43,512 bases of DNA from a virus (taxonomy: Duplodnaviria; Heunggongvirae; Uroviricota; Caudoviricetes). Below are positions 5,936 through 43,512 of the stretch, piece after piece (the first letter of the stretch is position 1; each line of letters begins with the position of its first letter). The stretch lies in the IMG/VR virus record IMGVR_UViG_2690315815_000009. One strand, written 5' to 3'. The notes under the pieces are model-generated. The model saw nothing but the letters and a program-made list of their open reading frames with translations, searched no databases and was not told the DNA's origin. The position numbers and the translations under genes were made by a program.

Positions 5936-6321
5936 TTTATTCCTTCTCTATTTTCACCAATTCGCGTCGCTATTGCTTCTTTAAGCTCGGCCAAATTTTC
6001 GATTTGCGCGTCAGATGCGGTTCCGGCATCTACTGCACACTGAATTGAGAATGCCTCAATTGACAGATCGCCAACAGTCCGTAATGTAGTCTGGAGTTTT
6101 TGCGTCTGCTCTTTTTTTACAAATTTAGAAATGCTCCCATAATCCCCGCTCAGCGCTCTTTCATATAAAACCCTACCGTGTTCCTCGCAATCATTTTTCA
6201 TTGCGGTGAATGGAATGTCGTTTCCAATCCCGTCAATATCGCAAATAATATTTATAGATAACCCATGCTCGTCATTAAAAACAGGGTTTGTTATTTTTCT
6301 AAATGAATCAACGCTTATCAT
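5932..6321 (-). CDS. Putative tail fibre assembly or accessory protein
   Basis: 129 aa, start overlapping the stop of the fibre gene; positional inference only. Confidence 0.35.
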   Translation of the reverse strand: MISVDSFRKITNPVFNDEHGLSINIICDIDGIGNDIPFTAMKNDCEEHGRVLYERALSGDYGSISKFVKKEQTQKLQTTLRTVGDLSIEAFSIQCAVDAGTASDAQIENLAELKEAIATRIGENREGIK

Positions 6322-31343: not shown

Positions 31344-32180
31344 TCAAAATGCTGAATTAGCAACGGATATAGCCGACTTTTTCCCCATTACCATCAATTT
31401 ATCCAGTGTCATACTTCGCAGATTGTCGCTGTGGATCACCAGATACCCTGCCCGCTCAGCGATCTCTTTGAAAGCGTCAAAGGTCATCAGATGTTCGCCT
31501 TTGGCAACATGGCGCATCCCGGTCACTTTTCCATTTTTGATAGTGGTGATAAAAGAAAAATCTGGAATGGTTGGGTGATTTTCATCGAGTAGCAGGCAGT
31601 GGATGTATTCAATCGCCTCTAACATTTGCGTCTGTGACAGTTGTTCTATGTGAGAGACGGCGAAGCGTTGATGAATCATGGTGTAGGCATCGGGATACAT
31701 CATGCCTTTCTTGCCGACCAGTATATTAACGGCATCACGCAAGGGAGTACGGTCATCGGTAGTTGTACTCCGCCTCTCTGGACGCTGGCTAAAATAACAA
31801 TCTTCCAGCTTTTCGAAAACTTCCCAGGCCTGTTCTGTTTCCAGCATTTTGGCATGGCGAGCTGCGCCGCGTTCTGTCCAGAGAATGAGGGATCGGGTAT
31901 GTTTAGCAACTGACTGACTATCTGTCAGTCTGTTTTTGAAGTCGCGTAATTCATTACCTTCCAGCTTAAAAAAATGCTTTCCTACGACAAATCTGGCGAT
32001 GTTGCGCTTGAAGTTTTGCTGGATACCATTTACTTCCGTGCCATACAAACTGGCAAGCAATTCAGTAGTGATGACGGGAAGTTGGTTATGATGTAGCGGA
32101 GAAAGGGATTCCGCAGATATTTGGACTGTCATCGCAGTGGCCTCACTTAGTGTTTTTTTCATCACCACCAGCGACGCCAA
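31344..32180 (-). CDS. Phage regulatory protein Rha / antirepressor (Rha N-terminal domain plus antirepressor-like C-terminal domain)
   Basis: 278 aa; N-terminal pattern ...NFKRNIARFVVGKHFFKLEGNELRDFK... typical of the Rha family. Confidence 0.6.
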   Translation of the reverse strand: MASLVVMKKTLSEATAMTVQISAESLSPLHHNQLPVITTELLASLYGTEVNGIQQNFKRNIARFVVGKHFFKLEGNELRDFKNRLTDSQSVAKHTRSLILWTERGAARHAKMLETEQAWEVFEKLEDCYFSQRPERRSTTTDDRTPLRDAVNILVGKKGMMYPDAYTMIHQRFAVSHIEQLSQTQMLEAIEYIHCLLLDENHPTIPDFSFITTIKNGKVTGMRHVAKGEHLMTFDAFKEIAERAGYLVIHSDNLRSMTLDKLMVMGKKSAISVANSAF

Positions 32181-32404
32181 TCATCTGGTGGTGAGCTGTG
32201 CAGGGTTGGCGTAACCGGCTAAGTGAACCCGGCGCTTCCACAGAAGCCCCCACACAGCCCACCATAATGCGAATGTGGCCGTGCCTAACACATAAAAAAA
32301 CCGCTAACGCGGCTATGCGTCACTTAGATATCCGGGACGCCAATCCCGGCAACCGATTTTGCGGCTGCGCGGAAACTATAGCCCCGGACTTTTTCTAAGT
32401 CAAT

Positions 32405-33580: not shown

Positions 33581-33991
33581 TCACGCCCCTTTCTTTGCTA
33601 TCGGAGTGATGGAACTCAGCAGCAGGCGGCAGCGACCAGGCGCGCCAATGCGCTGCCCGGTTATCTTGTCGTAAGTTTCATGCGGTGAGGCACACCAGGT
33701 TGTCGCTGTTTCGTGGAGTTTCACTTGCCGCTCACCATTTCTGCGAATCGCGATCCCGGTGTGCGTTTTGCCCTTACGTTTCACTGCTGGCGCTGCGGCT
33801 ACGGATGCCTGACGGGCAGGCTTAGCAGGGGTTGAAAAATTGCCTGCTTTAGGTCTTGGCACAAAAACCGCGCGAGTGCGCGCACGTGGCCCGACGTTCA
33901 TATTCCACAAAATGACGTCGAGATAGTTTTTACCGTCGTCTATGTGTCCTTTGTCCGACGGGTACTCTAATTTGCCTGGAGTGGTGGTCAT
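33581..33991 (-). CDS. Hypothetical protein
   Basis: 136-aa ORF downstream of the helicase gene; basic, low complexity; uncertain. Confidence 0.3.
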   Translation of the reverse strand: MTTTPGKLEYPSDKGHIDDGKNYLDVILWNMNVGPRARTRAVFVPRPKAGNFSTPAKPARQASVAAAPAVKRKGKTHTGIAIRRNGERQVKLHETATTWCASPHETYDKITGQRIGAPGRCRLLLSSITPIAKKGA

Positions 33992-34029
33992 TGGTCTTTC
34001 CTCGGTTATTTCACGCTGGTCAGGCGTGG

Positions 34030-35472
34030 TTAAAATTCATTTGTGCGAGAATTATCGCTACGGGAATAACGTTTATTTTTTTCTGAGCGGTCGTTGGTAA
34101 GGCGATAAACCTCCTCATCGCTGATATCAATAACTGAGCCATTTTTCATCAGGGCATAGGCTGTTCCCGATGGTCCTTCGCGGTTCAGACGTAGCAACAT
34201 TTCCATGAGATTTGGGTCGGCATTTTCGTTATAAACAGCATCACGATAGAGGCCAATCCAGACATCGCAATCTTGTTCGATCTGCCCGGTATCTTTACTG
34301 TCGCTCGGGTTAGGCCGCTTATCGGCACGTTCTTCAAGCTTTCGGTTGAGTTGCGTCAGCAGGACCACAACACAATCCAGCTCTTTTGCCAGGTTCTTCA
34401 AACCGGTTGTGATATCGCCATACGCAATATCCCTACGCTCTGCCGATTCGGTCTTCATCAGCGTCAAATAGTCAATTGCCACCAGGCCAACCGAGCCACG
34501 CATCCGTTTAACTTTTCGACATTCAGCGACAATATGCGCAAGGGTTACACCTGCCGTGCTGTCAATCATCATGTTGGATTCGGCAATCTCCCCCGCCTTT
34601 GCTATTGCGAGACTCAATTCAGATTCATCGTTAGGGCCAAGATAAAAAATCTCCGAATTGACCTTTGCTTCCTGCGCAACCATGCGTTCAATGAGACTTC
34701 TGTCAGTCATTTCCAGGCTAAATACCAGCGTCGGCAAACGATGATTCAGAGCAAAATGCACCGCAATTTTATTAAACGCGGCTGTCTTGCCCATTTTTGG
34801 CCGGGCACCAATAACGACCAATGAACCTCTTAACGCCTGCTTTGGTGCCATTAAGCGATCAAGGCTTTCGATTCCGAGCGTTAGTCCGGCTGCATGTGCT
34901 GGATCATTGAAACGGCGCTCAAGGTCATCTATCCAGTCATCGACGACTTCACTTGCCGGACGCAAACCGCCCTTATGCCCGGTACGGGAATGTTCGGCCA
35001 CCTGCCCAATCACTTGCTGAACGGCGGTGATCCTGTCAGTAGCAGTCATATCTGCAGGCTGGATCATAATCTCCAGACAAGAATTCAACTTTTCCACGGC
35101 ATAACGAAGAATGGCTTTTTCACGTACAATTTTCGCGTAGTTGACCATTGAGGCCGGAATCGCCGCCTTACTCATTTCAGCCAGGTATGCGAATCCCCCC
35201 ACGCGCTCATACAGCCCCTTCGATTCCATCAGTTCGGTCAGTGTTATCAGGTCAGTTGGTTTATCAGCTTGAAATAATCCTTTGATCTCCCGGTAGATAA
35301 CCTGATGCGCATTGATATAAAACGTTTCCGGTTTCAGTAACGCAAATACCGCATTGGTTCTGTCGTGGTCGGTATTCAGCATCAGACAGCCCAGAACAGC
35401 CTGTTCTGCGTCAACGCTGTACAGTGCAATCGCGTTATTTATCATTTGCGCGTTCTTCCTTGACCGAAACAT
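34030..35472 (-). CDS. Replicative DNA helicase (DnaB-like)
   Basis: 480 aa; DnaB N-terminal region and Walker A motif (GARPKMGKTA), Walker B-like (LVAIDYL) and DnaB-family C-terminal blocks. Confidence 0.85.
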   Translation of the reverse strand: MFRSRKNAQMINNAIALYSVDAEQAVLGCLMLNTDHDRTNAVFALLKPETFYINAHQVIYREIKGLFQADKPTDLITLTELMESKGLYERVGGFAYLAEMSKAAIPASMVNYAKIVREKAILRYAVEKLNSCLEIMIQPADMTATDRITAVQQVIGQVAEHSRTGHKGGLRPASEVVDDWIDDLERRFNDPAHAAGLTLGIESLDRLMAPKQALRGSLVVIGARPKMGKTAAFNKIAVHFALNHRLPTLVFSLEMTDRSLIERMVAQEAKVNSEIFYLGPNDESELSLAIAKAGEIAESNMMIDSTAGVTLAHIVAECRKVKRMRGSVGLVAIDYLTLMKTESAERRDIAYGDITTGLKNLAKELDCVVVLLTQLNRKLEERADKRPNPSDSKDTGQIEQDCDVWIGLYRDAVYNENADPNLMEMLLRLNREGPSGTAYALMKNGSVIDISDEEVYRLTNDRSEKNKRYSRSDNSRTNEF

Positions 35473-36190
35473 AGCAGCGTTCGGTAATCAGATAATCAAG
35501 ATTTTTACGCCGCCAGAATCCTCCCCTGCCATTTGGCCTGTCCTCCAGCATCCAGCGACAATTGCCACCGATAAATTCCAGATAGGCCCGCCAACGGGAC
35601 TCATTGAAATTGAATTTTTTCCAGAAAGTGCGAAGGTGTTTTTTTCTGCCGTCAGTGAGGATTTTCACTGGTGGCATCTCTGGCAAAATCTCGTGATAGG
35701 TATCGAGTATCACCTGATAATTTATTCTCTGGTCGGCAGGTTGTTGGGTGTCGGCGTCAGCCGATTCACCATCAGTAATAATCTCTGTAGTATTCTCTGT
35801 AAGAATGTTTGTTGGTTTTCCACGTACAGGCCTGGTGGTTTTCCCCTCACCTGTATGTGGTTTTTCCGCATCCTTGTATGCGGACGTAAGTAGCTGGCAC
35901 AACACATCATTATCGATTTTGTAGTACAGCCTGGCAGGCAAGCCCTGTTTACGTTCCAGCAAGACGCCGAGACCACGTAGTTTTTTGCGCGCGCCCTCCT
36001 GCTCGTATCGTGAAAGCCCTGTTTCCTCTTCCCACTCATCCTGGGTTTTATATACCCAGCCGTCGTCAGTTGTTCTGTTTGTCCAGTACGTCAACTGCGA
36101 CAGAAACAATGCGGCAGTCACGCCCATTTCAAGACGGATAAAACTTCTCTGGAAGGCTATGGGTCTATCAAGTAACGGGAGGATGTTCAT
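35435..36190 (-). CDS. Replication initiation protein (O-like replisome organiser)
   Basis: 251 aa directly upstream of and overlapping the helicase gene; contains internal iteron-like repeats in its central linker. Confidence 0.6.
   Translation of the reverse strand: MNILPLLDRPIAFQRSFIRLEMGVTAALFLSQLTYWTNRTTDDGWVYKTQDEWEEETGLSRYEQEGARKKLRGLGVLLERKQGLPARLYYKIDNDVLCQLLTSAYKDAEKPHTGEGKTTRPVRGKPTNILTENTTEIITDGESADADTQQPADQRINYQVILDTYHEILPEMPPVKILTDGRKKHLRTFWKKFNFNESRWRAYLEFIGGNCRWMLEDRPNGRGGFWRRKNLDYLITERCYVSVKEERANDK
35780..35885. repeat. Iteron-like direct repeats inside the initiator gene (candidate origin)
   Basis: TGGTTTT(T)CC at 35813, 35836 and 35858 (22-23 bp spacing) plus TCTCTGTA twice (35782, 35794). 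Confidence 0.4.
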
Positions 36191-36411
36191 ATGCCCAAAG
36201 CCTCTGAGAGAACGCGACAGCCAGCCTCATAGGCAGCGCCAGAGAGATTTTGCTCACGCAGTTTCGCTTTTTCTTCTTCGTACTTTTCCCATACAGAACG
36301 TGCAGCTGCGACGCGGCCATCGAATATGGGGCGGATCTCTGCAACATGTGCCGGGCGTCCATTCAGGTGCCAGCCGTTACGCCAGGTAATGCGGTCAATA
36401 TGTCTTAACAT
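36187..36411 (-). CDS. Hypothetical small early protein
   Basis: 74-aa ORF between the CII-like gene and the initiator gene, 4-nt overlap with the initiator start. Confidence 0.35.
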   Translation of the reverse strand: MLRHIDRITWRNGWHLNGRPAHVAEIRPIFDGRVAAARSVWEKYEEEKAKLREQNLSGAAYEAGCRVLSEALGI

Positions 36412-36450
36412 CGGTCTTTCCTCGGTATAAGTTAAACGCTGGTCAGGCGC

Positions 36451-36927
36451 TCATGCATGGTGGTCTTGCGCAGTGCGTATCACTGCTCCTCGCGTCGCTA
36501 CCAGCGCCGCTATTGCTTCGTCAATTTCCTGAATAGTTAACTCTGGCGCGAAGTGGAGATGTACAGCGTTAATCGCTTCCACCCCTTCTTTTGCCGCCAG
36601 CGTTGCCAGCAAAACGGGATCGCCCGGCGACTCCAGACGTGCCCGCCGTTCTGCGGGTAGCACGGCTTTCATCACACTGGCCAGCACCTGAGTTTTTCGG
36701 CGCGCCGCCGTTGTCTCGCCACGTAACCAGCGAAAGATTTTCTGCCGATTGTTGTTGATGGCTCTCCAGTCCACGTTGCCGTCCGCGTCCTCAAATTCAT
36801 GTAGTCTCAACTCATCATTGCGTCCCTGACTGAACCAGGCCCGGCAGATTTCAATCGTGACGAGTTCCTGCCCTGCCCTTGCCGCCCAGGTCAAAATCTC
36901 TTTTTGTAATTCCTCTTGGTTTTCCAT
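36451..36927 (-). CDS. YdaT-like / CII-like regulatory protein
   Basis: 158 aa following cro; resembles Rac prophage YdaT as I recall it (...NNNRQKIFRWLRGET...). Confidence 0.5.
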   Translation of the reverse strand: MENQEELQKEILTWAARAGQELVTIEICRAWFSQGRNDELRLHEFEDADGNVDWRAINNNRQKIFRWLRGETTAARRKTQVLASVMKAVLPAERRARLESPGDPVLLATLAAKEGVEAINAVHLHFAPELTIQEIDEAIAALVATRGAVIRTAQDHHA

Positions 36928-36985
36928 AGCGTCTCCTGTCGCTAAAAATTGATTACGCTTAATCAGATTTGGGGCTCACCAACAG

Positions 36986-37216
36986 TTAAGCTGCTTCCGT
37001 TTTAGGCAAGCTGTCATCTGGGTTTGGGTAAAGATCCGGTCTAAGATCATGAGGGGTCACGCGCCATTCAAGAGCTTCAGATGTGCGCAAAACCTCTTCA
37101 CCGGGAACCCGTCCTTTGAACCAGAGGCTTACCGTTTGTGGTTTTTTCCCTAATCGCCGCCCTAACTCGGATTGACTCATTACGGAAAGAATTTTGTCTT
37201 GCAGTTGTTTATCCAT
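36986..37216 (-). CDS. Cro-like repressor (YdaS-type HTH)
   Basis: 76 aa from ATG 37216 with AAGGAG SD 5 nt upstream (the ORF track extends to a TTG at 37252); HTH pattern SQSELGRRLGKKPQTVSLW; divergent from cI. Confidence 0.65.
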   Translation of the reverse strand: MDKQLQDKILSVMSQSELGRRLGKKPQTVSLWFKGRVPGEEVLRTSEALEWRVTPHDLRPDLYPNPDDSLPKTEAA

Positions 37217-37242
37217 ATGGACTCCTTGTGTCCGCGTCATCA

Positions 37243-37280
37243 TTACAAACAATAACTGTAATTACAAATTATATTTGCAA
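37243..37280. promoter_or_regulatory. Two tandem 19-bp operators (TTACAA-N7-TTGTAA-like) between cro and cI
   Basis: TTACAAACAATAACTGTAA (37243-37261) and TTACAAATTATATTTGCAA (37262-37280); a third copy lies at 37854-37872. Confidence 0.5.
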
Positions 37281-37299
37281 TGCTCCCTACAATTAAACC

Positions 37300-37728
37300 T
37301 TGTATCCTTACGGTATGAACACAAAAACGAAAAACATGGCTTTTGCTAGCCGACTACAACGGATTCTAAAAGACTTAGGCTGGTCTCAATCTGAGTTAGC
37401 TCGCCATATTGGGGTTACGGCTCAATCAGTTCAGGCATGGTGTAATGGGGTAACTCCAAGAAAAGATAAATTAGACAAGCTAGCAAAAGTGACCGGATAC
37501 CCTGTTCATTTTTTCTTCATGAATGAAGGGGAATATTTGGATGAATCCACACTACACCCGGGTAATTACAATCAAGAACTAACCCCGCAAGAACAGGCTC
37601 TACTGCAACTATTCAGAGGACTGCCTGAGAGCGAAAAAAATAAATTAATCAATGAGCTAAAAGAAAAAAGAGAGCACTTCGATCTACTGCTAAAAGAACT
37701 ACTTGAAGCCAAAAACCAGACAAAATAG
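37300..37728 (+). CDS. CI-like repressor (HTH, no obvious S24 peptidase domain)
   Basis: HTH pattern SQSELARHIGVTAQSVQAW; divergent from cro. Track start is TTG 37300; ATG starts at 37315 and 37336 are alternatives; a TACAAT -10-like hexamer at 37288 suggests a short or absent leader. Confidence 0.7.
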   Translation: MYPYGMNTKTKNMAFASRLQRILKDLGWSQSELARHIGVTAQSVQAWCNGVTPRKDKLDKLAKVTGYPVHFFFMNEGEYLDESTLHPGNYNQELTPQEQALLQLFRGLPESEKNKLINELKEKREHFDLLLKELLEAKNQTK

Positions 37729-37846
37729 TTCAGTTCAAATTTCCAGGCCAGCCGCTGCTGGCATGCAACTTTCCCCTAACACAAAAACACCTTTACACAG
37801 TGAATATTTTTTTGCCCCTCACTACAAATTATTTTTTAAAAACACA

Positions 37847-37876
37847 TTGACCATTACAAATACAAATTGTAAAGTC
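37847..37876 (+). promoter_or_regulatory. Candidate early-left promoter with overlapping operator (pL/oL-like)
   Basis: TTGACC (37847-37852), 17-bp spacer containing the operator TTACAAATACAAATTGTAA, then TAAAGT (37870-37875). Confidence 0.35.
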
Positions 37877-38272
37877 ACTTTCATCAACAACGCTTACCCA
37901 GCGGCAGTTGTTCAGAAACACGTTCTGACAGCCGGAAAGACGGCACCAAATTTTGCGCGTCGGCGCCAACACGGTGACAGAGGGAAAGACTTCACCGGCA
38001 TATGGCACATGTGTCGAAGCGGTCTGGATGGAAGCGGAGCCTTAACGCGTTGTCTCCATAGCAGGTAGCCGGAATGTGCAAGCCACAGCCAGGTATGAGC
38101 GATTGATTCACCATCAAGGCGATACGGTGTGACCACCAGGGAAGAGTCCTGGCTACAACACGAGAGCGCACTTCATCGACTCAACTTTGAGCTTTGTCGT
38201 TAAATTTTGAAATGGCGGAGTGCGCTCCCGGTTGTGGTGAACAGGTGTTTAACGGGAACTCCCTGCCCGTTA

Positions 38273-38298
38273 CCCGGTTCGATTCCGGGCGCCCATCA
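38273..38298 (+). other. tRNA-like 3' fragment (T-arm plus acceptor 3' strand), not a complete tRNA
   Basis: CCCGG-TTCGATT-CCGGG followed by CGCCCATCA; no matching 5' acceptor strand, D-arm or anticodon arm upstream. Confidence 0.3.
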
Positions 38299-38738
38299 TC
38301 AATTTGCTGTGTTTAGTCTTTGCCCAGTCCGCACGATGGGCCATTTTTTCACACAGCCAGGTTTTATCGCTGTGCCTGAGTCCCCAACAGGAGAGGCCAA
38401 ACCCGCAGCGTGACACCAGGGAAAGACCGGAGGAAGTACCACGCCTGACCAGCGTTGACCATGAGCCTGACCAGCTCAAAACAGGAAAGACCAGCCCGGG
38501 CCTGACCAGCCCTGTACGGTCGTAATGGAAACATAACGACGCCGGAAACGTAACCGGCACCCTTTAGATAGCAAAAGACCCGCACAAGGCGGGCCAGTTA
38601 CCCCGAACGGCGACCAAACCATTCGGATTTATCACAAGTGACCAAACTTGTGATGAGGAAAGACCAACGACACTGACGCTATGGAAGCTGATCAATATTC
38701 GCTGATCGGCTCTGAGTATACATTACCAAGGAGTCGCT

Positions 38739-39059
38739 ATGGAAGCGCGCACCATCCCAGTAACACTCTTTATTCATTATGCAACTTCAACTTTCAGCCA
38801 CGAAAAGCTGCTTGTTGCGACTGTTGATATGTCAAAAAATTTTCCAGACAGGTACATCCTTCTGGAAAGCCGCGAAATTGAAATTACCGTTAACCAGCCC
38901 GAGCCAATCGACATCATCGGTTTACAGGTCGAGCAACTGCGTGAACAAAAACAGAAAACAGTCGCCGACGCCCAACAGCGTATTGCTGCTATCGATGACA
39001 AAATCCAGCAGTTACTTTGCATCGAATACACGCCAGATACCGATGAGCTCCCCTACTAA
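38739..39059 (+). CDS. Hypothetical early-left protein
   Basis: 106-aa ORF with AAGGAG SD; first sizeable ORF of the early-left operon. Confidence 0.4.
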   Translation: MEARTIPVTLFIHYATSTFSHEKLLVATVDMSKNFPDRYILLESREIEITVNQPEPIDIIGLQVEQLREQKQKTVADAQQRIAAIDDKIQQLLCIEYTPDTDELPY

Positions 39060-39089
39060 AAACCACTGACCTGTAATGAGGAAAGACCA

Positions 39090-41306
39090 ATGACCATTTT
39101 TAACGGCTTGTTAGAAGCGAAAAAAGGCGCGCTCAAAAACGGCGCGATCCCGGCGCTGGCCATCGCCATCGCCGCCCCTAACAAAAAAGTTGCCGAGAAC
39201 ATCATCATCGGCAAATTGTGGGAAGCCTACCCTGACCACGGCGACAACTATTTCAAACCTAAAATCTGGGAAGATGCCCCGGGCCAACCGCGCCCAGGCG
39301 TCGGTGAGTTTGATGAGACGTTTGCCACAGAACACAGTTTTGATGGCGAAAAATGGGTAGTTAACACTCCTGTTGATTCAGATTGCAGTTCAGCAGATAT
39401 CTCACAGGTTAGCGACCTGATGAAACTGCCGGCTCGTGAACGATTCGCCGCCGTTCTGCTGTTCAGCCACGACGCCAACGAAGTCGACAGTGAATTGCTT
39501 GTGCAGACGCGTGAATACCTGGAGATGCTCGATAACAGTGATACTGACAGTGAGGATGAGGTTGACGCGTTTAACCGCATCGTTCTTGATGCCATGGTGG
39601 CGTGTAAGCCCATCGAGTACATGCATATTGCTGGATTGAATAATCTGGTACATGCAATTTTGGCAAGTTGCGATACCCAGGAACAAAACCCGACCAGTTG
39701 GACTATCTCCAAATTTATAAAAAAATGGGTAGAGAATCCCGGTAAACGAGATGAAATGCTGCCGGAGGTAAAACCAGAAACAGCATCCGCACGTCCTTAC
39801 AAACAGACTCACGCCACTCTGGATCGTGAAATTGCCTGCGCCCTGTTACCTGTTGCCCCGGAAAAAATCACCCCCAGCATCCTGAAAGCGGCAGACGAAA
39901 TAATCAGTCAGGACAGGGAAGATTTTAAACGCTGGTCAATGGCCTTGCGCACAACGGATCAGATCCTTGCCTATGACCGCGCATCAGTATTCGGTGTTAT
40001 TCAGAGCGCCCCCGCAAAAGACACGTACCACTTCCCACAATCCCTGCGCAGTCACATCGACAACTGGCTGCAAGCTAACGGGCAGCGTGATGCAAATGCT
40101 GTTGAAGAGAAGCCAAAGGAAGCAGCACCCAAGGATGATGTAAAAGTCACCAACCACGGCGGCGGACGATTCTCAATTGATGGGATGATGTCAGAAACAC
40201 CCTCAAATCAGGGCGAAAAAAGCGAAGCTGCAAATGCTGGAGAACGTAGTTTGCAGCAGTTGCGTGAGCAGTTTGTCACGCCTCGCCATGTGTATGACGT
40301 ACCTGAAAATAACGCCGTATCACAGAGGGAACCTGCAGCTATTACCCTGGCAGAAGAGACTCCTCCACAAGAACAACTTAGCGAGCAGGTAAAGGATCTG
40401 GTGCAGAACGTTGACGCGCTGGTTGAGCGGATCCATGCCGAAGAGCACAAGCGGCAGAATGCAATCTCAGCTATCGAAACGGAGTTAAAGGACTCAGATG
40501 ACACGGATAACCTGGCATTGTGGAAGAACGTATTCAAAACCGATGAGCGCTTCACCAGTGCTTTCTCTCAGAATGGCGGCGGCACATCCATCAACGGCAC
40601 TTATATAGCGATGAAAGCGACTCGCGAATTTGGGCCATTTGGTATTGGCTGGGGGGTAGAGGTGCTGGAGGAGCGCTTTGATAAAGGCGCACCAATAGTT
40701 CGCAAAAAACAGGTTGGTGAAAAAATAGAATGGGATCTGATTCAAGACGGTGTTGGCGGGTACCTATGTGAAATGCACCACACCATGAAAGTGAGAGTCT
40801 GGTACATATTGAATGGGGTACGCGGTGAGTCCGAGGCTTACGGATGCACACCTTATATCTACGACACTAAATACGGACCAACAAGCGACGGCGAAGCACC
40901 GAAGAAATCCTGGACGGATGCTGTTAAGAAAGCGCTATCCCCTCTCGGATTCAGCGCCGATATTTTCATGGGCCTGTACGACAATCCGGAATACCGCCAG
41001 AGGAATAAAGCTGAGTTTGATATCAAGAATGCCAGCGAGAATGCGGAAGATGCTACCCGTCTGCGTAAGGAACTGGATGAGAAGCTTATCAACGTTGCCA
41101 ATACGCTGGCCGCCGCGGTAACCGCCAACGAAGTAAACAAGGTATTTGGCCTCATCGCCCGCGAAGTGGATGTACACAGGAAAGCAGCGGAAACCAAAGG
41201 CGATAAAGAATATTCATCGTATCTGGGATCACGTCTGCGCCGTATCACCGACATTAAAACTGAACGCCTCGCCGCCCTTACCGCTGCACAGGAGCAAACA
41301 GCATGA
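39090..41306 (+). CDS. Large recombination protein with C-terminal Rad52/Erf-like single-strand annealing domain
   Basis: 738 aa; residues about 500-640 carry Rad52/Erf-like motifs (FGPFGIGWG...; ...SWTDAVKKALSPLGFSADIFMGLYD, compare Rad52 TDGLKRALRSFGNALGN); early-left position typical of phage recombination genes. Confidence 0.45.
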   Translation: MTIFNGLLEAKKGALKNGAIPALAIAIAAPNKKVAENIIIGKLWEAYPDHGDNYFKPKIWEDAPGQPRPGVGEFDETFATEHSFDGEKWVVNTPVDSDCSSADISQVSDLMKLPARERFAAVLLFSHDANEVDSELLVQTREYLEMLDNSDTDSEDEVDAFNRIVLDAMVACKPIEYMHIAGLNNLVHAILASCDTQEQNPTSWTISKFIKKWVENPGKRDEMLPEVKPETASARPYKQTHATLDREIACALLPVAPEKITPSILKAADEIISQDREDFKRWSMALRTTDQILAYDRASVFGVIQSAPAKDTYHFPQSLRSHIDNWLQANGQRDANAVEEKPKEAAPKDDVKVTNHGGGRFSIDGMMSETPSNQGEKSEAANAGERSLQQLREQFVTPRHVYDVPENNAVSQREPAAITLAEETPPQEQLSEQVKDLVQNVDALVERIHAEEHKRQNAISAIETELKDSDDTDNLALWKNVFKTDERFTSAFSQNGGGTSINGTYIAMKATREFGPFGIGWGVEVLEERFDKGAPIVRKKQVGEKIEWDLIQDGVGGYLCEMHHTMKVRVWYILNGVRGESEAYGCTPYIYDTKYGPTSDGEAPKKSWTDAVKKALSPLGFSADIFMGLYDNPEYRQRNKAEFDIKNASENAEDATRLRKELDEKLINVANTLAAAVTANEVNKVFGLIAREVDVHRKAAETKGDKEYSSYLGSRLRRITDIKTERLAALTAAQEQTA

Positions 41307-41872
41307 GCACTGCTATCGCTATTGCAAAAGAATATGCCAGTCTGATTGACCTGTTAGAAACCGCCGATGAACTGACGCCAGAGATGATCGCCGACACGCT
41401 TGAAGGCATGGAAGGAGAACTGGGAGACAAACTGGACGCCATGATGGTCATCTGCCGTAATTTACAGGGCAATGCCAATACCTGCGCTGAAGAAATGTCT
41501 CGCCTGGCAACCCGTAAGACGTCCTTTGAAGGCAAGGAAAAAGCAATTCGAAAGCATATGCTCACCTGCCTGCAAGCTGCTGGCCTGGATAAACTGAAAA
41601 CCGCAAAAAACACATTTACTGATGCACAGGGGGCTATCCGGGTAATTATCGATAGCAAAGATAAGATCCCGGATGAGTATGAGGGCGTGTCACTTGTTGA
41701 TGTAGAAACGGTTATTACACCAAACAAGCGAGCCATTAAAGAAGTGATTGAATCTGCGGAGGCGGTTGCCGCCGAAATACTGGCGCGTGGAGAAACACCA
41801 CCAGCCGAGTTATTAAACCCGGTACCAGGCGCACATCTGGAACGCGGCGAACGGTCACTGAGGATACGCTAA
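41303..41872 (+). CDS. Siphovirus Gp157-family protein
   Basis: 189 aa; pattern resembles the Gp157 family (IPDEYEGVSL, KRAIKEVIES, SLRIR); 4-nt overlap with the upstream gene. Confidence 0.55.
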   Translation: MSTAIAIAKEYASLIDLLETADELTPEMIADTLEGMEGELGDKLDAMMVICRNLQGNANTCAEEMSRLATRKTSFEGKEKAIRKHMLTCLQAAGLDKLKTAKNTFTDAQGAIRVIIDSKDKIPDEYEGVSLVDVETVITPNKRAIKEVIESAEAVAAEILARGETPPAELLNPVPGAHLERGERSLRIR

Positions 41873-42054
41873 TGCTTAAACTCACATTAAAGCGTGGTGA
41901 CGCGGTTCACCTGGTACTTGCCGATGGTACCAATGGCATTATTGAAGCACGGAGCCGCTGCGAACTTGGGCTACACCTGCCAGAAAACATTAAGGTCACT
42001 CGGGAGAAATCGGCATTCACCCCACAAGAACTGATTACGCCTAATCAGAAATAA
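41872..42054 (+). CDS. Small protein with CsrA-like sequence pattern (alternatively a Kil-type small early protein)
   Basis: 60 aa; gapless alignment to E. coli CsrA (from memory) preserves ML.LT...G at the N-terminus and LG..LP..[VI].V.RE around the CsrA Arg44 position. Confidence 0.3.
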   Translation: MLKLTLKRGDAVHLVLADGTNGIIEARSRCELGLHLPENIKVTREKSAFTPQELITPNQK

Positions 42055-42103
42055 AAACTCACCATCGCTAGCATTGCGATTCACCAGACACCGGAGGATC
42101 ACA

Positions 42104-42328
42104 ATGCTGCGATGGCAACCGGGAGCAACTCTGCTCTCCGCATTTGATATCAAAATTGGTCGACTGTCGGCCAGCGTCAGGAAACAGACTTTGACCGAGT
42201 CTGATATTGCCCGTGCCTGCCAGAAGGCAGATGACGCAATAAGCTACATAATGAGGAAAGACCATGAAAAGCGATCACGACATAATCACCAGAGAAGAAA
42301 TGGTCGAGCTGACGGGAAGCCCACTTAA
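42104..42328 (+). CDS. Hypothetical small early protein
   Basis: ORF from ATG 42104 with GGAGGA SD (the track extends upstream to 42074); its 3' end overlaps the excisionase-like gene. Confidence 0.3.
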   Translation: MLRWQPGATLLSAFDIKIGRLSASVRKQTLTESDIARACQKADDAISYIMRKDHEKRSRHNHQRRNGRADGKPT

Positions 42329-42527
42329 ATCAAAGCAATGTGAGGCTCTTCGCCGGGCTGGAATTTTCTTCATGGAAAGGGCTGACGGACACCCAAAAAC
42401 AACCTGGGGCCATTTCATGAACCCAATAAAATTTCGCAATTTACAGGAGGTGACGACGCGAAAAGATGATGAACCTGATTTTGGAGCAATATTTAATGGC
42501 CGGAAAGAGAAAGAACCCAGCAGATAA
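42264..42527 (+). CDS. Excisionase-like protein (DUF4224-type)
   Basis: 87 aa immediately upstream of the integrase; pattern ITREEMVELTG...KQCEALRRAGIFF...DGHPKTTWGH resembles DUF4224 Xis-like proteins. Confidence 0.5.
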   Translation: MKSDHDIITREEMVELTGSPLKSKQCEALRRAGIFFMERADGHPKTTWGHFMNPIKFRNLQEVTTRKDDEPDFGAIFNGRKEKEPSR

Positions 42528-43512
42528 CTGGATGCCGCCTCGTGTTTACCAGGGCAAAGCGGCCTACGAATTCAGGAATAAAGATAACAAAGCGATACGC
42601 CTGTGCGCATTGGATGCACCACGATCAGCCGTATGGCTGGCATATGAAAAAGCGGTCGGTGACGAAAAAGAAAGAAATACTTTTCAGGCGCTCACGGAAC
42701 AATTCATGACCTCCCCTGATTTTATGGATTTGGCAGTCGAAACCCGGAAAGACTACACAAAATATTCCGGAAAAGTTCTGCCTGTCTTCGGGAAGATCGA
42801 CCCGGATAAAATCAAACCTGAACATATTCGGCGCTATATGGATCAACGCGGTTTATCAAGCCGAACTCAGGCAAACAGGGAAAAAAGCTTTATGTCCCGG
42901 GTATTCCGTTGGGGTTATGAACGAGGTTATGTTCAGAGGAATCCTTGTCAGGGAGTTAAACAGTTTAAAGAGAAAGCTCGCGAACGTTATATTACGGATG
43001 AAGAATATCAGGCCGTTTATGAAGTGTCTCCTGATGTTGTTCGCGTAGCAATGGAGATTGCCTACTTATGCGTGGCCAGACAGAGTGATGTACTTTCATT
43101 GCAGAAAGACCAGCTGTTCGATTCCGGGATCTACATTCGTCAGGGAAAAACCGGCGTTAAGCAAATCAAAGCCTGGTCGCCTCGTCTGCAGAAAGCGATA
43201 GCTCTGGCTCGTTCTCTGCCATTAAAAACGGGAATCAGTAGCCTGTTTGTGATTCATCAAACTACCGGTGGCAAGTATACCCGTGATGGTTTTAACTCTC
43301 GTTGGCGTGATGTCAAAGCGGCAGCACAGGAAAAATATCCTCATCTGCAAATAGACTTCACATTTCATGATCTGAAAGCAAAAGGTATCTCTGATCTGGA
43401 AGGCAGCCTGGAAGAGAAGCAAGCAATTTCCGGGCATAAGAACCCGCGACAGACAGCAGCATATGACCGGAAAGTTAAAGTAGTGCCCGTAGTTGGTGGC
43501 CAGAGAAAATGA
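42496..43512 (+). CDS. int: Tyrosine site-specific integrase (lambda Int family)
   Basis: Start taken at ATG 42496 (MAGKRKNPADNWMPPRVY..., arm-binding-like N-terminus as in lambda Int); the ORF track begins at 42466. C-terminal catalytic region with HxLRH-like and terminal Tyr motifs; stop codon at the window edge. Confidence 0.85.
   Translation: MAGKRKNPADNWMPPRVYQGKAAYEFRNKDNKAIRLCALDAPRSAVWLAYEKAVGDEKERNTFQALTEQFMTSPDFMDLAVETRKDYTKYSGKVLPVFGKIDPDKIKPEHIRRYMDQRGLSSRTQANREKSFMSRVFRWGYERGYVQRNPCQGVKQFKEKARERYITDEEYQAVYEVSPDVVRVAMEIAYLCVARQSDVLSLQKDQLFDSGIYIRQGKTGVKQIKAWSPRLQKAIALARSLPLKTGISSLFVIHQTTGGKYTRDGFNSRWRDVKAAAQEKYPHLQIDFTFHDLKAKGISDLEGSLEEKQAISGHKNPRQTAAYDRKVKVVPVVGGQRK

What the first reader, a model, noticed from the sequence alone, without database searches (positions are those of the whole stretch)
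38653..42266. Identical 14-nt cassette ATGAGGAAAGACCA repeated three times ahead of early-left genes, each encoding an MRKD mini-ORF
The same 14-mer occurs at 38653-38666, 39076-39089 and 42251-42264. At 39076 it encodes MRKDQ-stop with the TGA overlapping the ATG of the 738-aa recombination gene (ATGA). At 42251 it runs into the start of the excisionase-like gene. At 38653 it gives a 7-codon ORF just upstream of the first early gene. Exact 14-nt identity three times is more than a Shine-Dalgarno coincidence and suggests a duplicated translation-initiation or coupling module, or a binding site for a regulator.
Basis: seen in the sequence. Interest (0 to 1): 0.5.

Follow-up and report, generated by a model that had tools for sequence, protein, structure and literature searches.

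The report
Phage antisense RNA matching shared ribosome sites
The repeated 14-mer is a standard ribosome-binding cassette used by several early genes of an E. coli prophage, and its third, gene-less copy lies inside an unannotated small RNA gene on the opposite strand, whose exposed seed is complementary to that cassette, so one phage RNA could silence several early gene blocks at once.

Summary
In detail: ATGAGGAAAGACCA occurs exactly at 38653, 39076 and 42251. The conserved core is GAGGAAAGACC. It has five exact copies, all in the early region and all in the sense of local transcription.

Four copies are the Shine-Dalgarno and spacer of real genes: exonuclease, excisionase, a 74-aa ORF ahead of the replication initiator, and a 136-aa ORF after DnaB.

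The copy at 38653 is not a ribosome site. It lies inside a strongly structured RNA gene on the minus strand (about 38707 to 38571). That gene has a conserved -10 box, a 5' helix, a 7-nt unpaired linker UUUCCUC, two hairpins with UUGGUC loops and a terminator. Helix cells with G·U versus A·C run 94 to 4 in favour of the minus strand.

Related prophages show four motif classes (GAGG-AAA/CAA/TAT/CAT-GACC). In each phage the RNA's seed triplet matches the triplet of its ribosome-site copies (112/112, 48/51, 23/36, 3/3).

The 3' scaffold resembles Salmonella IsrB, an expressed Gifsy sRNA for which I found no reported function. The MRKD mini-ORF is not conserved (ATG in 13% of cassettes).

Best reading: a trans-acting anti-ribosome-site sRNA. 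Expression and repression are untested here.

The parts
38571..38707 (-). Predicted small RNA gene of about 137 nt (IsrB-like scaffold). Order along the RNA: 5' helix P1, unpaired seed linker, hairpins H2 and H1, terminator.
   Evidence: Covariance model R1 gives a single hit in the window, 38723->38554 minus, 161.7 bits, E 1.5e-39. The minus strand folds to -62.1 kcal/mol (z -7.4) against -41.4 (z -4.7) for the plus strand. On the alignment 92.5% of cells are paired and 16 pairs have compensatory changes. G·U versus A·C cells on the minus strand run 94 to 4.
38715..38720 (-). Putative -10 box TATACT of the sRNA promoter. The inferred transcription start is near 38707, the first base of helix P1.
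   Evidence: A TANNNT hexamer sits at the same alignment column in 67 of 70 family members: TATACT 34, TATAAT 16, TAAAAT 14, TAGAAT 2, TATATT 1. It lies 6-7 nt before P1 in all four classes. The -35 is weak in this class. The promoter is inferred, not shown.
38662..38707 (-). Helix P1. GAUCAGCG pairs with CGUUGGUC, which sequesters the UUGGUC half of the anti-cassette sequence.
   Evidence: Helix 1 is paired in 100% of cells, with compensatory U:A to C:G changes at one pair, and G·U pairs that would be mismatches on the plus strand. It appears in the minimum-energy fold.
38653..38667 (-). Anti-ribosome-site seed UUGGUCUUUCCUCAU, the reverse complement of the finding's copy 1. Its unpaired part is UUUCCUC (38661->38655).
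   Evidence: TTGGTC-T-CCT is invariant across 70 aligned members. It is unpaired in the minimum-energy folds of all four classes, and this stretch holds the class-specific triplet.
38631..38654 (-). Hairpin H2, with loop UUUGGUC.
   Evidence: All 9 pairs show compensatory changes across 33 distinct sequences. Plus-strand C·A mismatches correspond to minus-strand G·U pairs.
38603..38626 (-). Hairpin H1, with loop UUUGGUCG. Together with the terminator it forms the IsrB-like module.
   Evidence: There are 47 G·U cells against 0 A·C cells on the minus strand. In relative L003, Rfam isrB aligns to H1 plus the terminator at 31.8 bits, below the gathering score of 35.
38571..38595 (-). Intrinsic terminator on the minus strand: GGCCCGC-CUUGU-GCGGGUC followed by UUUUGCU.
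   Evidence: The terminator scan finds it. Most relatives carry AGCCCAC-UUCG-GUGGGCU followed by UUUUUUAC. The window's own stem has a G·U pair that would be an A·C mismatch on the plus strand.
39076..39094 (+). Finding's copy 2: translation-initiation region of the 738-aa exonuclease-family gene (39090-41306). Predicted trans target, with 19 contiguous pairs including one G·U at the AUG.
   Evidence: It is the best trans duplex in the window, -35.4 kcal/mol against a background of -11.9 +/- 3.8, and -41.3 with the longer probe. The gene matches PHROG 2489, annotated exonuclease.
42251..42266 (+). Finding's copy 3: translation-initiation region of the excisionase-family DUF4224 gene (42264-42527). 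Predicted trans target with 14 pairs.
   Evidence: Duplex energies are -30.5 and -37.3. The gene matches Pfam DUF4224 and PHROG 1266, annotated excisionase.
36409..36423 (-). Cassette copy GAGGAAAGACCGAUG before the 74-aa ORF (36187-36411), which overlaps the start of the O-like replication initiator. Predicted trans target.
   Evidence: Duplex energies are -27.6 and -33.5. PHROG annotation.
33987..34003 (-). Cassette copy GAGGAAAGACCAAUGAC before the 136-aa ORF (33581-33991), downstream of DnaB. Predicted trans target with 17 pairs including one G·U.
   Evidence: Duplex energies are -32.0 and -35.0.
38416..38495 (+). Two further GGAAAGACC copies (38420, 38484) and three GCCTGACCAGC copies in the early-left leader. 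They may be decoy sites for the sRNA on the leader RNA; the functional strand is undetermined.
   Evidence: Duplex energies are -39.5 and -28.0. G·U versus A·C evidence for these hairpins is mixed. Leader copies match the class in TAT and CAT phages but are absent in the CAA example L225.
34012..34028 (-). Intergenic mRNA hairpin CACGC-CUGACCA-GCGUG, about 12 nt upstream of a cassette. A sister hairpin lies at 36434-36452 (-).
   Evidence: In this hairpin class G·U pairs fall on the sense strand (29 against 15). The GACCA loop is complementary to the UGGUC of the sRNA loops; that interaction is an inference.

Best explanation
The 14-mer is a standardised translation-initiation cassette: GAGG, a 3-nt specificity triplet, GACC(A), then AUG. 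It heads at least four early cistrons of this E. coli prophage.

The gene-less copy at 38653 is the DNA template of the seed of a small RNA of about 137 nt. That RNA is transcribed from the opposite strand, from about 38707 to 38571, antisense to the leader of the early-left operon.

The RNA folds into four parts:
- a 5' helix that hides UUGGUC
- a 7-nt unpaired linker UUUCCUC, which is an anti-Shine-Dalgarno sequence plus the specificity triplet
- two hairpins that display UUGGUC loops
- an intrinsic terminator

Inferred mechanism:
- The exposed linker nucleates on GAGGAAA of each cassette.
- Pairing then spreads through GACCAAUG by opening the 5' helix.
- The Shine-Dalgarno sequence and start codon are occluded, and translation of the first cistron of each gene block is blocked. 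The blocks are exonuclease/Gp157, excisionase/integrase, the replication block and the block after DnaB.
- Immediate-early genes (cro-like, CII-like, the first early-left gene) lack the cassette and would escape.

What is shown and what is inferred:
- Shown: the structured minus-strand RNA family, its conserved -10 box and terminator, the complementarity, and the co-variation of seed and cassettes.
- Inferred: expression in this strain, repression of translation, and the biological role. Plausible roles are silencing of leaky early expression in the lysogen and class-specific interference with related superinfecting phages, relieved when strong early-left transcription makes the complementary leader.
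For: 1. The motif is specific to the early region and to the sense strand.
- There are five exact GAGGAAAGACC copies against 0.62 expected at up to 1 mismatch.
- There are seven GGAAAGACC copies against 0.42 expected, all within 33993-42263.

2. The motif is conserved at gene starts in prophages of Raoultella, Rosenbergiella, Enterobacter and E. whittamii, although the 738-aa protein is only 45-54% identical in all but the last, E. whittamii (95%).

3. The RNA is made from the minus strand.
- G·U versus A·C cells are 47:0 in H1, 39:0 in P1 and 8:4 in H2.
- GACCAA-loop hairpins read on the plus strand have 38 A·C cells against 2 G·U.
- The minus strand folds to -62.1 kcal/mol (z -7.4); the plus strand folds to -41.4.

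4. Covariation supports the structure.
- On A1, 92.5% of cells are paired, 16 pairs have double changes, 0 of 500 shuffles reach the observed values, and slid controls give 43-49%.
- On 33 distinct sequences of all classes, 200 cells have double changes against 68 +/- 6.6 in shuffles. That alignment (A3) was fitted to the model's own structure, so its pair counts lean towards the structure.

5. Promoter and terminator are conserved.
- A TANNNT box sits 6-7 nt before P1 in 67 of 70 members.
- A U-tailed terminator is present.

6. Seed and target co-vary. Among 69 distinct sRNA loci:
- an AAA seed goes with 112 AAA cassettes and 0 others
- a CAA seed goes with 48 CAA and 3 others
- a TAT seed goes with 23 TAT, 11 AAT and 2 others
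- a CAT seed goes with 3 CAT
The CAA, TAT and CAT loci were collected through the sRNA copy alone.

7. The variable triplet lies in the unpaired linker in the fold of every class.

8. The four cassette sites are the best or near-best trans duplexes in the window, at -27.6 to -35.4 kcal/mol against a background of -11.9 +/- 3.8. Pairing runs through the AUG by way of G·U pairs.

9. A homologous RNA is expressed. Rfam isrB aligns to the 3' scaffold of relative L003. Salmonella IsrB was detected by Northern blot and primer extension, in the same position and orientation next to the exonuclease gene sbcA (PMC2330248).
Against: - There are no expression data for this strain or this subfamily.
- The -35 element is weak in the AAA class.
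- The window's own RNA does not reach the Rfam isrB threshold. Canonical IsrB-type loci have a different 5' domain and no repeated target cassette, so IsrB's expression supports the locus but not the trans mechanism.
- Half of the anti-cassette sequence is sequestered in helix P1, so pairing needs strand opening.
- Co-variation could in principle come from concerted evolution of a repeated cassette.
- The TAT class has 11 AAT cassettes with one mismatch.
- The terminator tail in the window has only four U.
- Repression, as opposed to some other outcome of pairing, is assumed from the position of the duplex.
Confidence: 0.68

Rival explanations
1. The cassette is only a favoured strong ribosome site or module-junction sequence, spread and homogenised within each phage lineage by recombination. 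The antisense RNA exists but acts only in cis on the early-left leader, by transcriptional interference or RNase III cleavage, and its match to the other copies has no function.
For: The cassette sits in the intergenic gaps between gene blocks, and in different relatives it precedes different genes. Canonical IsrB-type RNAs at the same position have no trans cassettes, so a purely cis role exists within the wider family. Copy 1 shares 23 of 26 bases with copy 2, as a relic gene start would.
Against: Eleven to fifteen bases flanked by unrelated genes is a poor substrate for gene conversion. Yet four classes keep the sRNA copy and 3 to 7 dispersed copies identical. The spacer is conserved while the proteins have diverged to about 50% identity. 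The variable triplet lies exactly in the unpaired linker of the RNA. In 23 of 70 members copy 1 is followed by ACG rather than ATG, so it is not kept as a ribosome site, but it still pairs with AUG through a G·U.
Confidence: 0.17
2. The motif is the RNA or DNA binding site of a phage or host protein, such as a translational repressor, a CsrA-like GGA binder, or an N/boxB-like antiterminator that recognises GAAAGA/GACCA loops. The protein's specificity would co-evolve with the triplet.
For: Several copies lie in small hairpin loops that resemble boxB, for example GCCGG-GAAAGA-CCGGC. All copies are in the sense orientation, as expected for sites on mRNA. GGA motifs are abundant in the leader.
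Against: No candidate protein was identified. Pfam and PHROG searches of the early-region ORFs named no N-like or RNA-binding protein, and the longest leader ORF has no typical arginine-rich motif. The hairpins next to copy 1 are functional on the opposite strand. The constant hairpin GCCGGAAAGACGGC is retained in TAT and CAT phages, where the cassettes have changed. An RNA partner with perfect complementarity is already present.
Confidence: 0.08
3. This is the first reader's model: each copy starts an MRKD mini-ORF whose translation is coupled to the downstream gene.
For: The ATGA overlap at 39090 and the open frames at all three copies are real.
Against: The ATG is present in only 13% of 205 distinct homologous cassettes. 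The two minus-strand copies in this window read CCGAGG. The mini-ORF's ATG lies 5' of the Shine-Dalgarno GAGG, and there is no ribosome site of its own upstream of it.
Confidence: 0.03

Closest known systems
IsrB-1/IsrB-2 of Salmonella Gifsy-2/Gifsy-1 (Rfam RF01386)
   Same: It is a small RNA on the strand opposite to its neighbours, next to the early-left exonuclease gene (sbcA) of a lambdoid prophage. It shares the 3' module, a hairpin with a (C)UUUGGUCG loop followed by a GCCCAC-UUCG-GUGGGC terminator.
   Different: IsrB is 88/94 nt and has a different 5' domain. IsrB-type loci carry no repeated complementary cassette. The window's RNA is not detected by the Rfam model. I found no target or function reported for IsrB in the papers read.
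C4 antisense RNA of the P1/P7 immI region (from my own knowledge; the family is also present elsewhere in this window)
   Same: It is a phage-encoded RNA that pairs with a ribosome-binding region to block an early function. Specificity variants of RNA and target co-vary and define heteroimmune phages.
   Different: C4 is processed from the same transcript and strand as its targets and controls one operon (icd-ant). Here the RNA has its own antisense promoter and terminator, and it matches 4 to 7 dispersed initiation regions on both early operons.
CI RNA of satellite phage P4, with its seqA/seqC target sites (own knowledge)
   Same: One small phage RNA recognises several repeated sites; it serves an immunity function.
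   Different: The P4 sites lie in the leader on the same transcript and cause premature transcription termination. They are not ribosome sites of separate genes.
sar RNA of P22 and OOP RNA of lambda (own knowledge)
   Same: These are short antisense RNAs with their own promoter and terminator inside an early region, and they repress an early gene.
   Different: Each has a single, fully overlapping cis target and no multi-copy cassette.
Anti-Shine-Dalgarno seeds of multi-target sRNAs, for example the C/U-rich seeds of staphylococcal Rsa RNAs (own knowledge)
   Same: A pyrimidine-rich unpaired seed pairs with the Shine-Dalgarno sequences of several mRNAs.
   Different: Those seeds use the generic Shine-Dalgarno sequence. 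Here specificity comes from an 11 to 15-nt cassette, including a variable triplet, that the phage has installed at its own genes.

Membership tests
Rfam isrB (RF01386) | Covariance-model score at or above the gathering score of 35 bits. | tested here: not met
   The window shows no isrB hit at E up to 5. The relative L003 scores 31.8 bits, E 2e-4, over H1 plus the terminator only. It is a related scaffold, not a member by Rfam's threshold.
Rfam isrB (RF01386) | Position and orientation: beside the early-left exonuclease gene of a lambdoid prophage, on the strand opposite to both neighbours. | tested here: met
   The window RNA runs 38707->38571 (-) between the + strand repressor-like gene and the + strand 106-aa and exonuclease genes. 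IsrB lies between sbcA and STM1010 with arrows '<- -> <-'.
Trans-acting base-pairing sRNA | Own promoter and intrinsic terminator that bound a short non-coding transcript. | tested here: met
   A -10 box is conserved in 67 of 70 members, and a U-tailed terminator is present. Both are sequence predictions; the transcript itself has not been observed.
Trans-acting base-pairing sRNA | A conserved unpaired seed complementary to the translation-initiation regions of targets, with co-variation. | tested here: met
Trans-acting base-pairing sRNA | Expression, and regulation of targets in vivo; dependence on a chaperone such as Hfq. | not testable with these tools
   The only evidence is for the homologue IsrB: Northern blot and primer extension and weak Hfq co-immunoprecipitation, 2 against 4 reads.
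C4-type antisense RNA (Rfam clan CL00128) | Match to the C4 model; RNA and targets on one transcript. | tested here: not met
   C4, isrK and a1b1 hits are at 32184-32381 (-), not at this locus. Here the RNA is on the strand opposite to its cis site.
Shine-Dalgarno / translation-initiation region (copies 2 and 3 and the two minus-strand copies) | A purine-rich GGAG-like element 5-9 nt before a start codon of a real gene. | tested here: met
   GAGG lies 7-8 nt before the ATG of ORFs that have Pfam or PHROG families and RefSeq annotation. Among 205 cassettes the GACC-to-start spacing is 1 nt in 65% and 0 nt in 17%.
Upstream mini-ORF / leader peptide coupling | The mini-ORF start codon and frame are conserved in homologues. 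| tested here: not met
   ATG is present in 27 of 205 cassettes.
Lambda/P22-type nut site (boxA + boxB) | A boxB hairpin on the sense transcript, together with an N-like protein gene. | tested here: not met
   The hairpins next to copy 1 are functional on the antisense strand. Pfam and PHROG searches of the early-region ORFs named no N-like protein, and the longest leader ORF has no typical arginine-rich motif.

The most novel reading that the evidence does not exclude
A family of enterobacterial temperate phages has fitted the first cistron of each delayed-early gene block with one standard ribosome-site cassette. A single antisense sRNA, on an IsrB-like scaffold, can then gate recombination, excision and replication together at the level of translation. 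The 3-nt triplet in the seed and cassettes has diversified into at least four mutually incompatible classes, which would amount to an RNA-based immunity specificity parallel to the protein repressor. This would also give a first function to the IsrB family.
Probability: 0.45. Interest if true: 0.8.

Novelty: new variant of a known kind. Interest (0 to 1): 0.68.

Why it matters
If the model holds, it shows a compact way for a temperate phage to control many early genes with one RNA. The phage gives those genes the same ribosome-site "address" and encodes the antisense of that address once.

It would matter for four reasons:
- It would give a function and a testable target set to an IsrB-like RNA found in about 8% of complete E. 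coli genomes (449 of 5,426; ST131 records are among the listed hits) and in prophages of Raoultella, Enterobacter, Rosenbergiella and Serratia.
- It would provide a natural set of four orthogonal seed/cassette pairs.
- It predicts RNA-based heteroimmunity between related prophages.
- Excisionase is one of the predicted targets, so the RNA could affect prophage stability and spontaneous induction.

Tried and rejected
1. MRKD mini-ORF or translational coupling. The ATG is not conserved.

2. A tRNA, tmRNA or known RNA family at the site. ARAGORN finds none. Rfam at gathering threshold finds nothing there in the window or in five relatives. In E-value mode it gives only chance-level hits in the window.

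3. A plus-strand leader structure such as nut/boxB or put-like antitermination. It was attractive because the loops GAAAGA and GACCAA resemble lambda and P22 boxB. It was rejected because the helices carry G·U pairs only on the minus strand and the minus-strand fold is far more stable.

4. A 5' hairpin CAGAGCC/GGCUCUG as part of the sRNA. It has 20 A·C cells against 9 G·U on the minus strand, and it lies upstream of the inferred start, so it was dropped.

5. Extended pairing of the cassette with the 16S rRNA 3' end beyond GAGG. Checked by hand: no match without a gap and without unwinding helix 45. Dropped.

6. CsrA-type GGA sites. The conserved AAGACC part and the class triplet are not explained. 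No test was possible.

7. Pairing of the RprA-like RNA (38241-38351) with the cassette. Only 6 contiguous pairs were found by hand. Dropped.

8. Searches of annotated phage genomes.
- No near match for 6 kb of the window.
- Only two records at 75% identity for the leader.
- None for a CAA-class RNA.

9. Literature searches for the motif and for a comparable mechanism found nothing relevant. E. coli K-12 'IsrB' (AzuCR) is, from my own knowledge, an unrelated RNA that happens to share the name.

10. IS elements inside the region in some genomes. They interrupt the exonuclease and integrase genes, not the RNA locus.

11. Canonical IsrB-type loci were tested for repeated complementary cassettes. 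None were found.

Full report
**Observation**

ATGAGGAAAGACCA occurs exactly at 38653, 39076 and 42251 on the + strand. With up to 2 mismatches there are six matches against 0.27 expected.

The signal is wider than reported:
- The core GAGGAAAGACC has five exact copies. The two extra ones are on the minus strand, directly before the ATGs at 36411 and 33991.
- GGAAAGACC occurs seven times against 0.42 expected. All copies lie between 33993 and 42263, and each is in the sense of local transcription.
- Copies 1 and 2 share 23 of 26 bases.

**Context**

The window is a lambdoid prophage found in 492 of 5,426 complete E. coli genomes, ST131 strains among them. It is integrated beside tRNA-Leu/Cys/Gly and pgsA.

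On the + strand lie, in order:
- a CI-like HTH gene (to 37728)
- a roughly 1-kb stretch with no annotated feature
- a 106-aa gene (38739)
- a 738-aa gene of an exonuclease-annotated family (39090)
- Gp157
- a 60-aa gene
- a DUF4224 excisionase-family gene (42264)
- integrase

On the minus strand lie cro-like, CII-like, a 74-aa ORF overlapping an O-like initiator, DnaB, and a 136-aa ORF followed by coupled small genes.

Four of the five GAGGAAAGACC copies sit 0-1 nt before the start codons of the first cistron after each intergenic gap. These are ribosome sites. The fifth copy (38655) is 86 nt upstream of the 106-aa gene, which has its own AAGGAG, and it is followed by ACG.

**Conservation**

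Homologous prophages of E. whittamii, Raoultella, Rosenbergiella and Enterobacter keep GAGGAAAGACC at several gene starts and at the gene-less position. Their 738-aa protein is only 45-54% identical to the window's, except in E. whittamii (95%).

A scan of viral contigs recovered more than 40 loci with 3 to 11 copies each. The ATG that would start the MRKD mini-ORF is present in only 27 of 205 distinct cassettes. The mini-ORF is therefore incidental.

**The gene-less copy lies in an RNA gene on the other strand**

- **Alignment and structure.** An alignment of 19 distinct homologues of 38555-38723, read on the minus strand (A1), supports four helices. Cells are 92.5% paired, 16 pairs have compensatory changes, none of 500 shuffles reaches the observed values, and slid controls give 43-49%.
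- **Strand.** G·U versus A·C cells are 47:0 (H1), 39:0 (P1) and 8:4 (H2) on the minus strand. On the plus strand these would be mismatches. An independent regex census of GACCAA-loop hairpins gives 38 A·C against 2 G·U on the plus strand.
- **Fold energy.** The minus strand folds to -62.1 kcal/mol (z -7.4), the plus strand to -41.4.
- **Promoter and terminator.** A TANNNT hexamer lies 6-7 nt before the first base of P1 in 67 of 70 aligned members, even though the hexamer itself varies (TATACT, TATAAT, TAAAAT, TAGAAT). A stem-loop with a U tail follows.
- **Covariance model.** A model built only from AAA-class sequences finds one hit in the window (38723->38554, minus, E 1.5e-39). It also finds full-length hits in the other classes. 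On that broader set 200 cells carry double changes against 68 +/- 6.6 in shuffles. That alignment (A3) was fitted to the model's own structure, so its pair counts lean towards the structure.

**Anatomy in the window (coordinates checked)**

| Part | Coordinates (minus strand) | Sequence or note |
|---|---|---|
| -10 box | 38720->38715 | TATACT |
| Helix P1 | 38707->38662 | GAUCAGCG pairs with CGUUGGUC |
| Unpaired linker | 38661->38655 | UUUCCUC |
| Hairpin H2 | 38654->38631 | loop UUUGGUC |
| Hairpin H1 | 38626->38603 | loop UUUGGUCG |
| Terminator | 38595->38577 | followed by UUUUGCU |

The RNA thus contains UUGGUCUUUCCUCAU, the exact complement of the finding's 14-mer plus one base.

**Seed-target relation**

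- **Window-wide scan.** Among 17,390 windows on both strands, the best trans duplexes with the seed are the cassettes at 39061 (+, -35.4 kcal/mol), 34017 (-, -32.0) and 42246 (+, -30.5). The cassette at 36427 (-) scores -27.6. The background is -11.9 +/- 3.8.
- **Extent of pairing.** Pairing extends through the start codon by G·U pairs. There are 19 contiguous pairs at the exonuclease gene, 17 at the 136-aa ORF, 15 at the 74-aa ORF and 14 at the excisionase gene.
- **Controls.** Initiation regions without the cassette (the first early-left gene, the cro-like gene) give about -15.

**Co-variation**

A Serratia relative (L007) carries GAGGCATGACC five times instead of GAGGAAAGACC. One copy sits at the RNA locus, whose fold exposes AUGCCUC.

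A scan keyed only on the RNA copy with a non-A first triplet base revealed further classes. Over 69 distinct RNA loci:

| Seed triplet | Cassettes with the same triplet | Other cassettes |
|---|---|---|
| AAA | 112 | 0 |
| CAA | 48 | 3 |
| TAT | 23 | 11 AAT + 2 |
| CAT | 3 | 0 |

In the minimum-energy fold of each class the variable triplet lies in the unpaired linker. This is what an RNA-RNA recognition code predicts. It is hard to obtain by chance or from a relic ribosome site.

**Relation to known RNAs**

No Rfam family reaches threshold at the locus. In relative L003, however, the isrB model (RF01386) aligns to H1 plus the terminator at 31.8 bits, with a gathering score of 35.

Salmonella IsrB-1 and IsrB-2 (88/94 nt) lie between sbcA (exonuclease VIII) and the next gene in Gifsy-2 and Gifsy-1, on the strand opposite to both. 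They were seen by Northern blot and primer extension and are induced by starvation (PMC2330248). Hfq co-immunoprecipitation was marginal (PMC2515195). Expression in lysogens was seen again by RNA-seq (PMC7067206). I found no target or function in these papers.

IsrB-type loci recovered from viral contigs share the 3' module but have other 5' domains, and their loci hold no repeated complementary cassette. The window's RNA is therefore an IsrB-like scaffold with a distinct 5' targeting domain.

The locus is present in 449 of 5,426 complete E. coli genomes, and no feature is annotated under the match in any of the 40 records listed.

**Mechanism (inferred)**

- The RNA is made from its own promoter, probably in the lysogen as IsrB is.
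- Its exposed UUUCCUC nucleates on GAGGAAA of each cassette. Pairing then invades P1 to cover GACCAAUG, occluding the Shine-Dalgarno sequence and start codon of the lead cistron of each block.
- The UUGGUC loops of H1 and H2 fit the YUNR U-turn pattern known to speed antisense pairing (own knowledge). They are complementary to GACCAA in the cassette and to the GACCA loops of intergenic mRNA hairpins. A kissing step is plausible but untested.
- When the early-left promoter fires, its leader is fully complementary to the RNA. In this class the leader carries two more GGAAAGACC copies (38420, 38484), which could titrate the RNA. Such leader copies are not universal; L225 has none.

**Rivals**

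- A purely cis antisense RNA combined with a recombination-homogenised cassette (confidence about 0.17).
- A protein that reads the motif (about 0.08).
- The mini-ORF model (about 0.03).

None of these explains as well, at the same time, three facts: the triplet sits in the unpaired linker, its identity tracks the cassettes across classes, and the helices are readable only on the minus strand.

**Verdict**

The best explanation is a previously unannotated IsrB-like antisense sRNA whose seed matches a standard ribosome-site cassette of at least four early genes. Four co-varying specificity classes occur across enterobacterial prophages. The existence of a structured minus-strand RNA element at 38571-38707 is well supported by comparative evidence. 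Its promoter, its boundaries and its transcription in this strain are predictions. Trans repression is a strong inference that needs experiments.

Noticed in passing
window 38241-38351 (+); L003 2987-3094 (+): An RprA-like small RNA lies in the early-left leader. Its 3' half (UUGCUGUGUUUAGUCUUUGCCC plus a terminator) closely matches the conserved 3' region of RprA. It scores 37.4 bits in the window and 44.1 bits in L003, both below the gathering score of 70. It may be a phage-encoded RprA mimic.
   Followed up: partly
window 38217-38297 (+): A fragment resembles a tRNA-Sec T-arm and acceptor (GGTTCGATTCCGGGCGCCCA; 19.3 bits, E 0.93). ARAGORN calls no tRNA. It could be a relic attachment site or a processing signal just upstream of the RprA-like RNA.
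   Followed up: partly
window 32184-32381 (-): C4 antisense RNA, its a1/b1 target and isrK all score above their Rfam thresholds, next to an ORF6N-domain gene, perhaps an antirepressor (31344-32180). The prophage therefore also carries a P1/Gifsy-type RNA immunity module.
   Followed up: no
window 38400-38520 (+): An array of mini-hairpins holds GCCTGACCAGC three times (38443, 38465, 38500) and GGAAAGACC twice. Relatives have up to five GGAAAGACC copies here. Which strand is functional is unresolved: G·U evidence is mixed, and there are terminator-like sites on the minus strand at 38561->38538 and 38513->38487.
   Followed up: partly
window 37783-37875 (+): This is the only sigma-70-like promoter match in 36900-42700: TTGACC, 17 nt, TAAAGT at 37847-37875. 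It is flanked by repeated AAAAACAC(C/A)TT(T/G)AC boxes at 37783 and 37838. It is a candidate early-left promoter with operators.
   Followed up: no
window 37926-37947 and 37975-37996 (+): The hairpin GCCGGAAAGACGGC (GAAAGA loop) stays constant in TAT- and CAT-class phages, where the cassettes have changed. It looks like a structural element of the leader that is separate from the cassette code.
   Followed up: partly
window 42104-42328 (+): An unannotated 74-aa ORF contains copy 3 in frame and overlaps the excisionase start. It has no Pfam family, and RefSeq does not call it.
   Followed up: partly
L129 (Stenotrophomonas phage vB_SmeS_BUCT709, OM816835.1) 6163-6313 (-): A phage deposited with a Stenotrophomonas host has the same early-region layout and a full-length hit to the sRNA model (172.8 bits). 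There the locus overlaps a short annotated 'hypothetical protein' CDS.
   Followed up: partly
L190 and other TAT-class loci: TAT-class phages also carry 11 cassettes that read GAGGAATGACC, one mismatch to their seed. These could be weaker or escaped targets.
   Followed up: no
L308, L309 (E. coli S14 and AVS0543): In several genomes ISEc52, IS150 or IS1A interrupts the exonuclease or integrase gene of this prophage, while the sRNA locus stays intact.
   Followed up: partly
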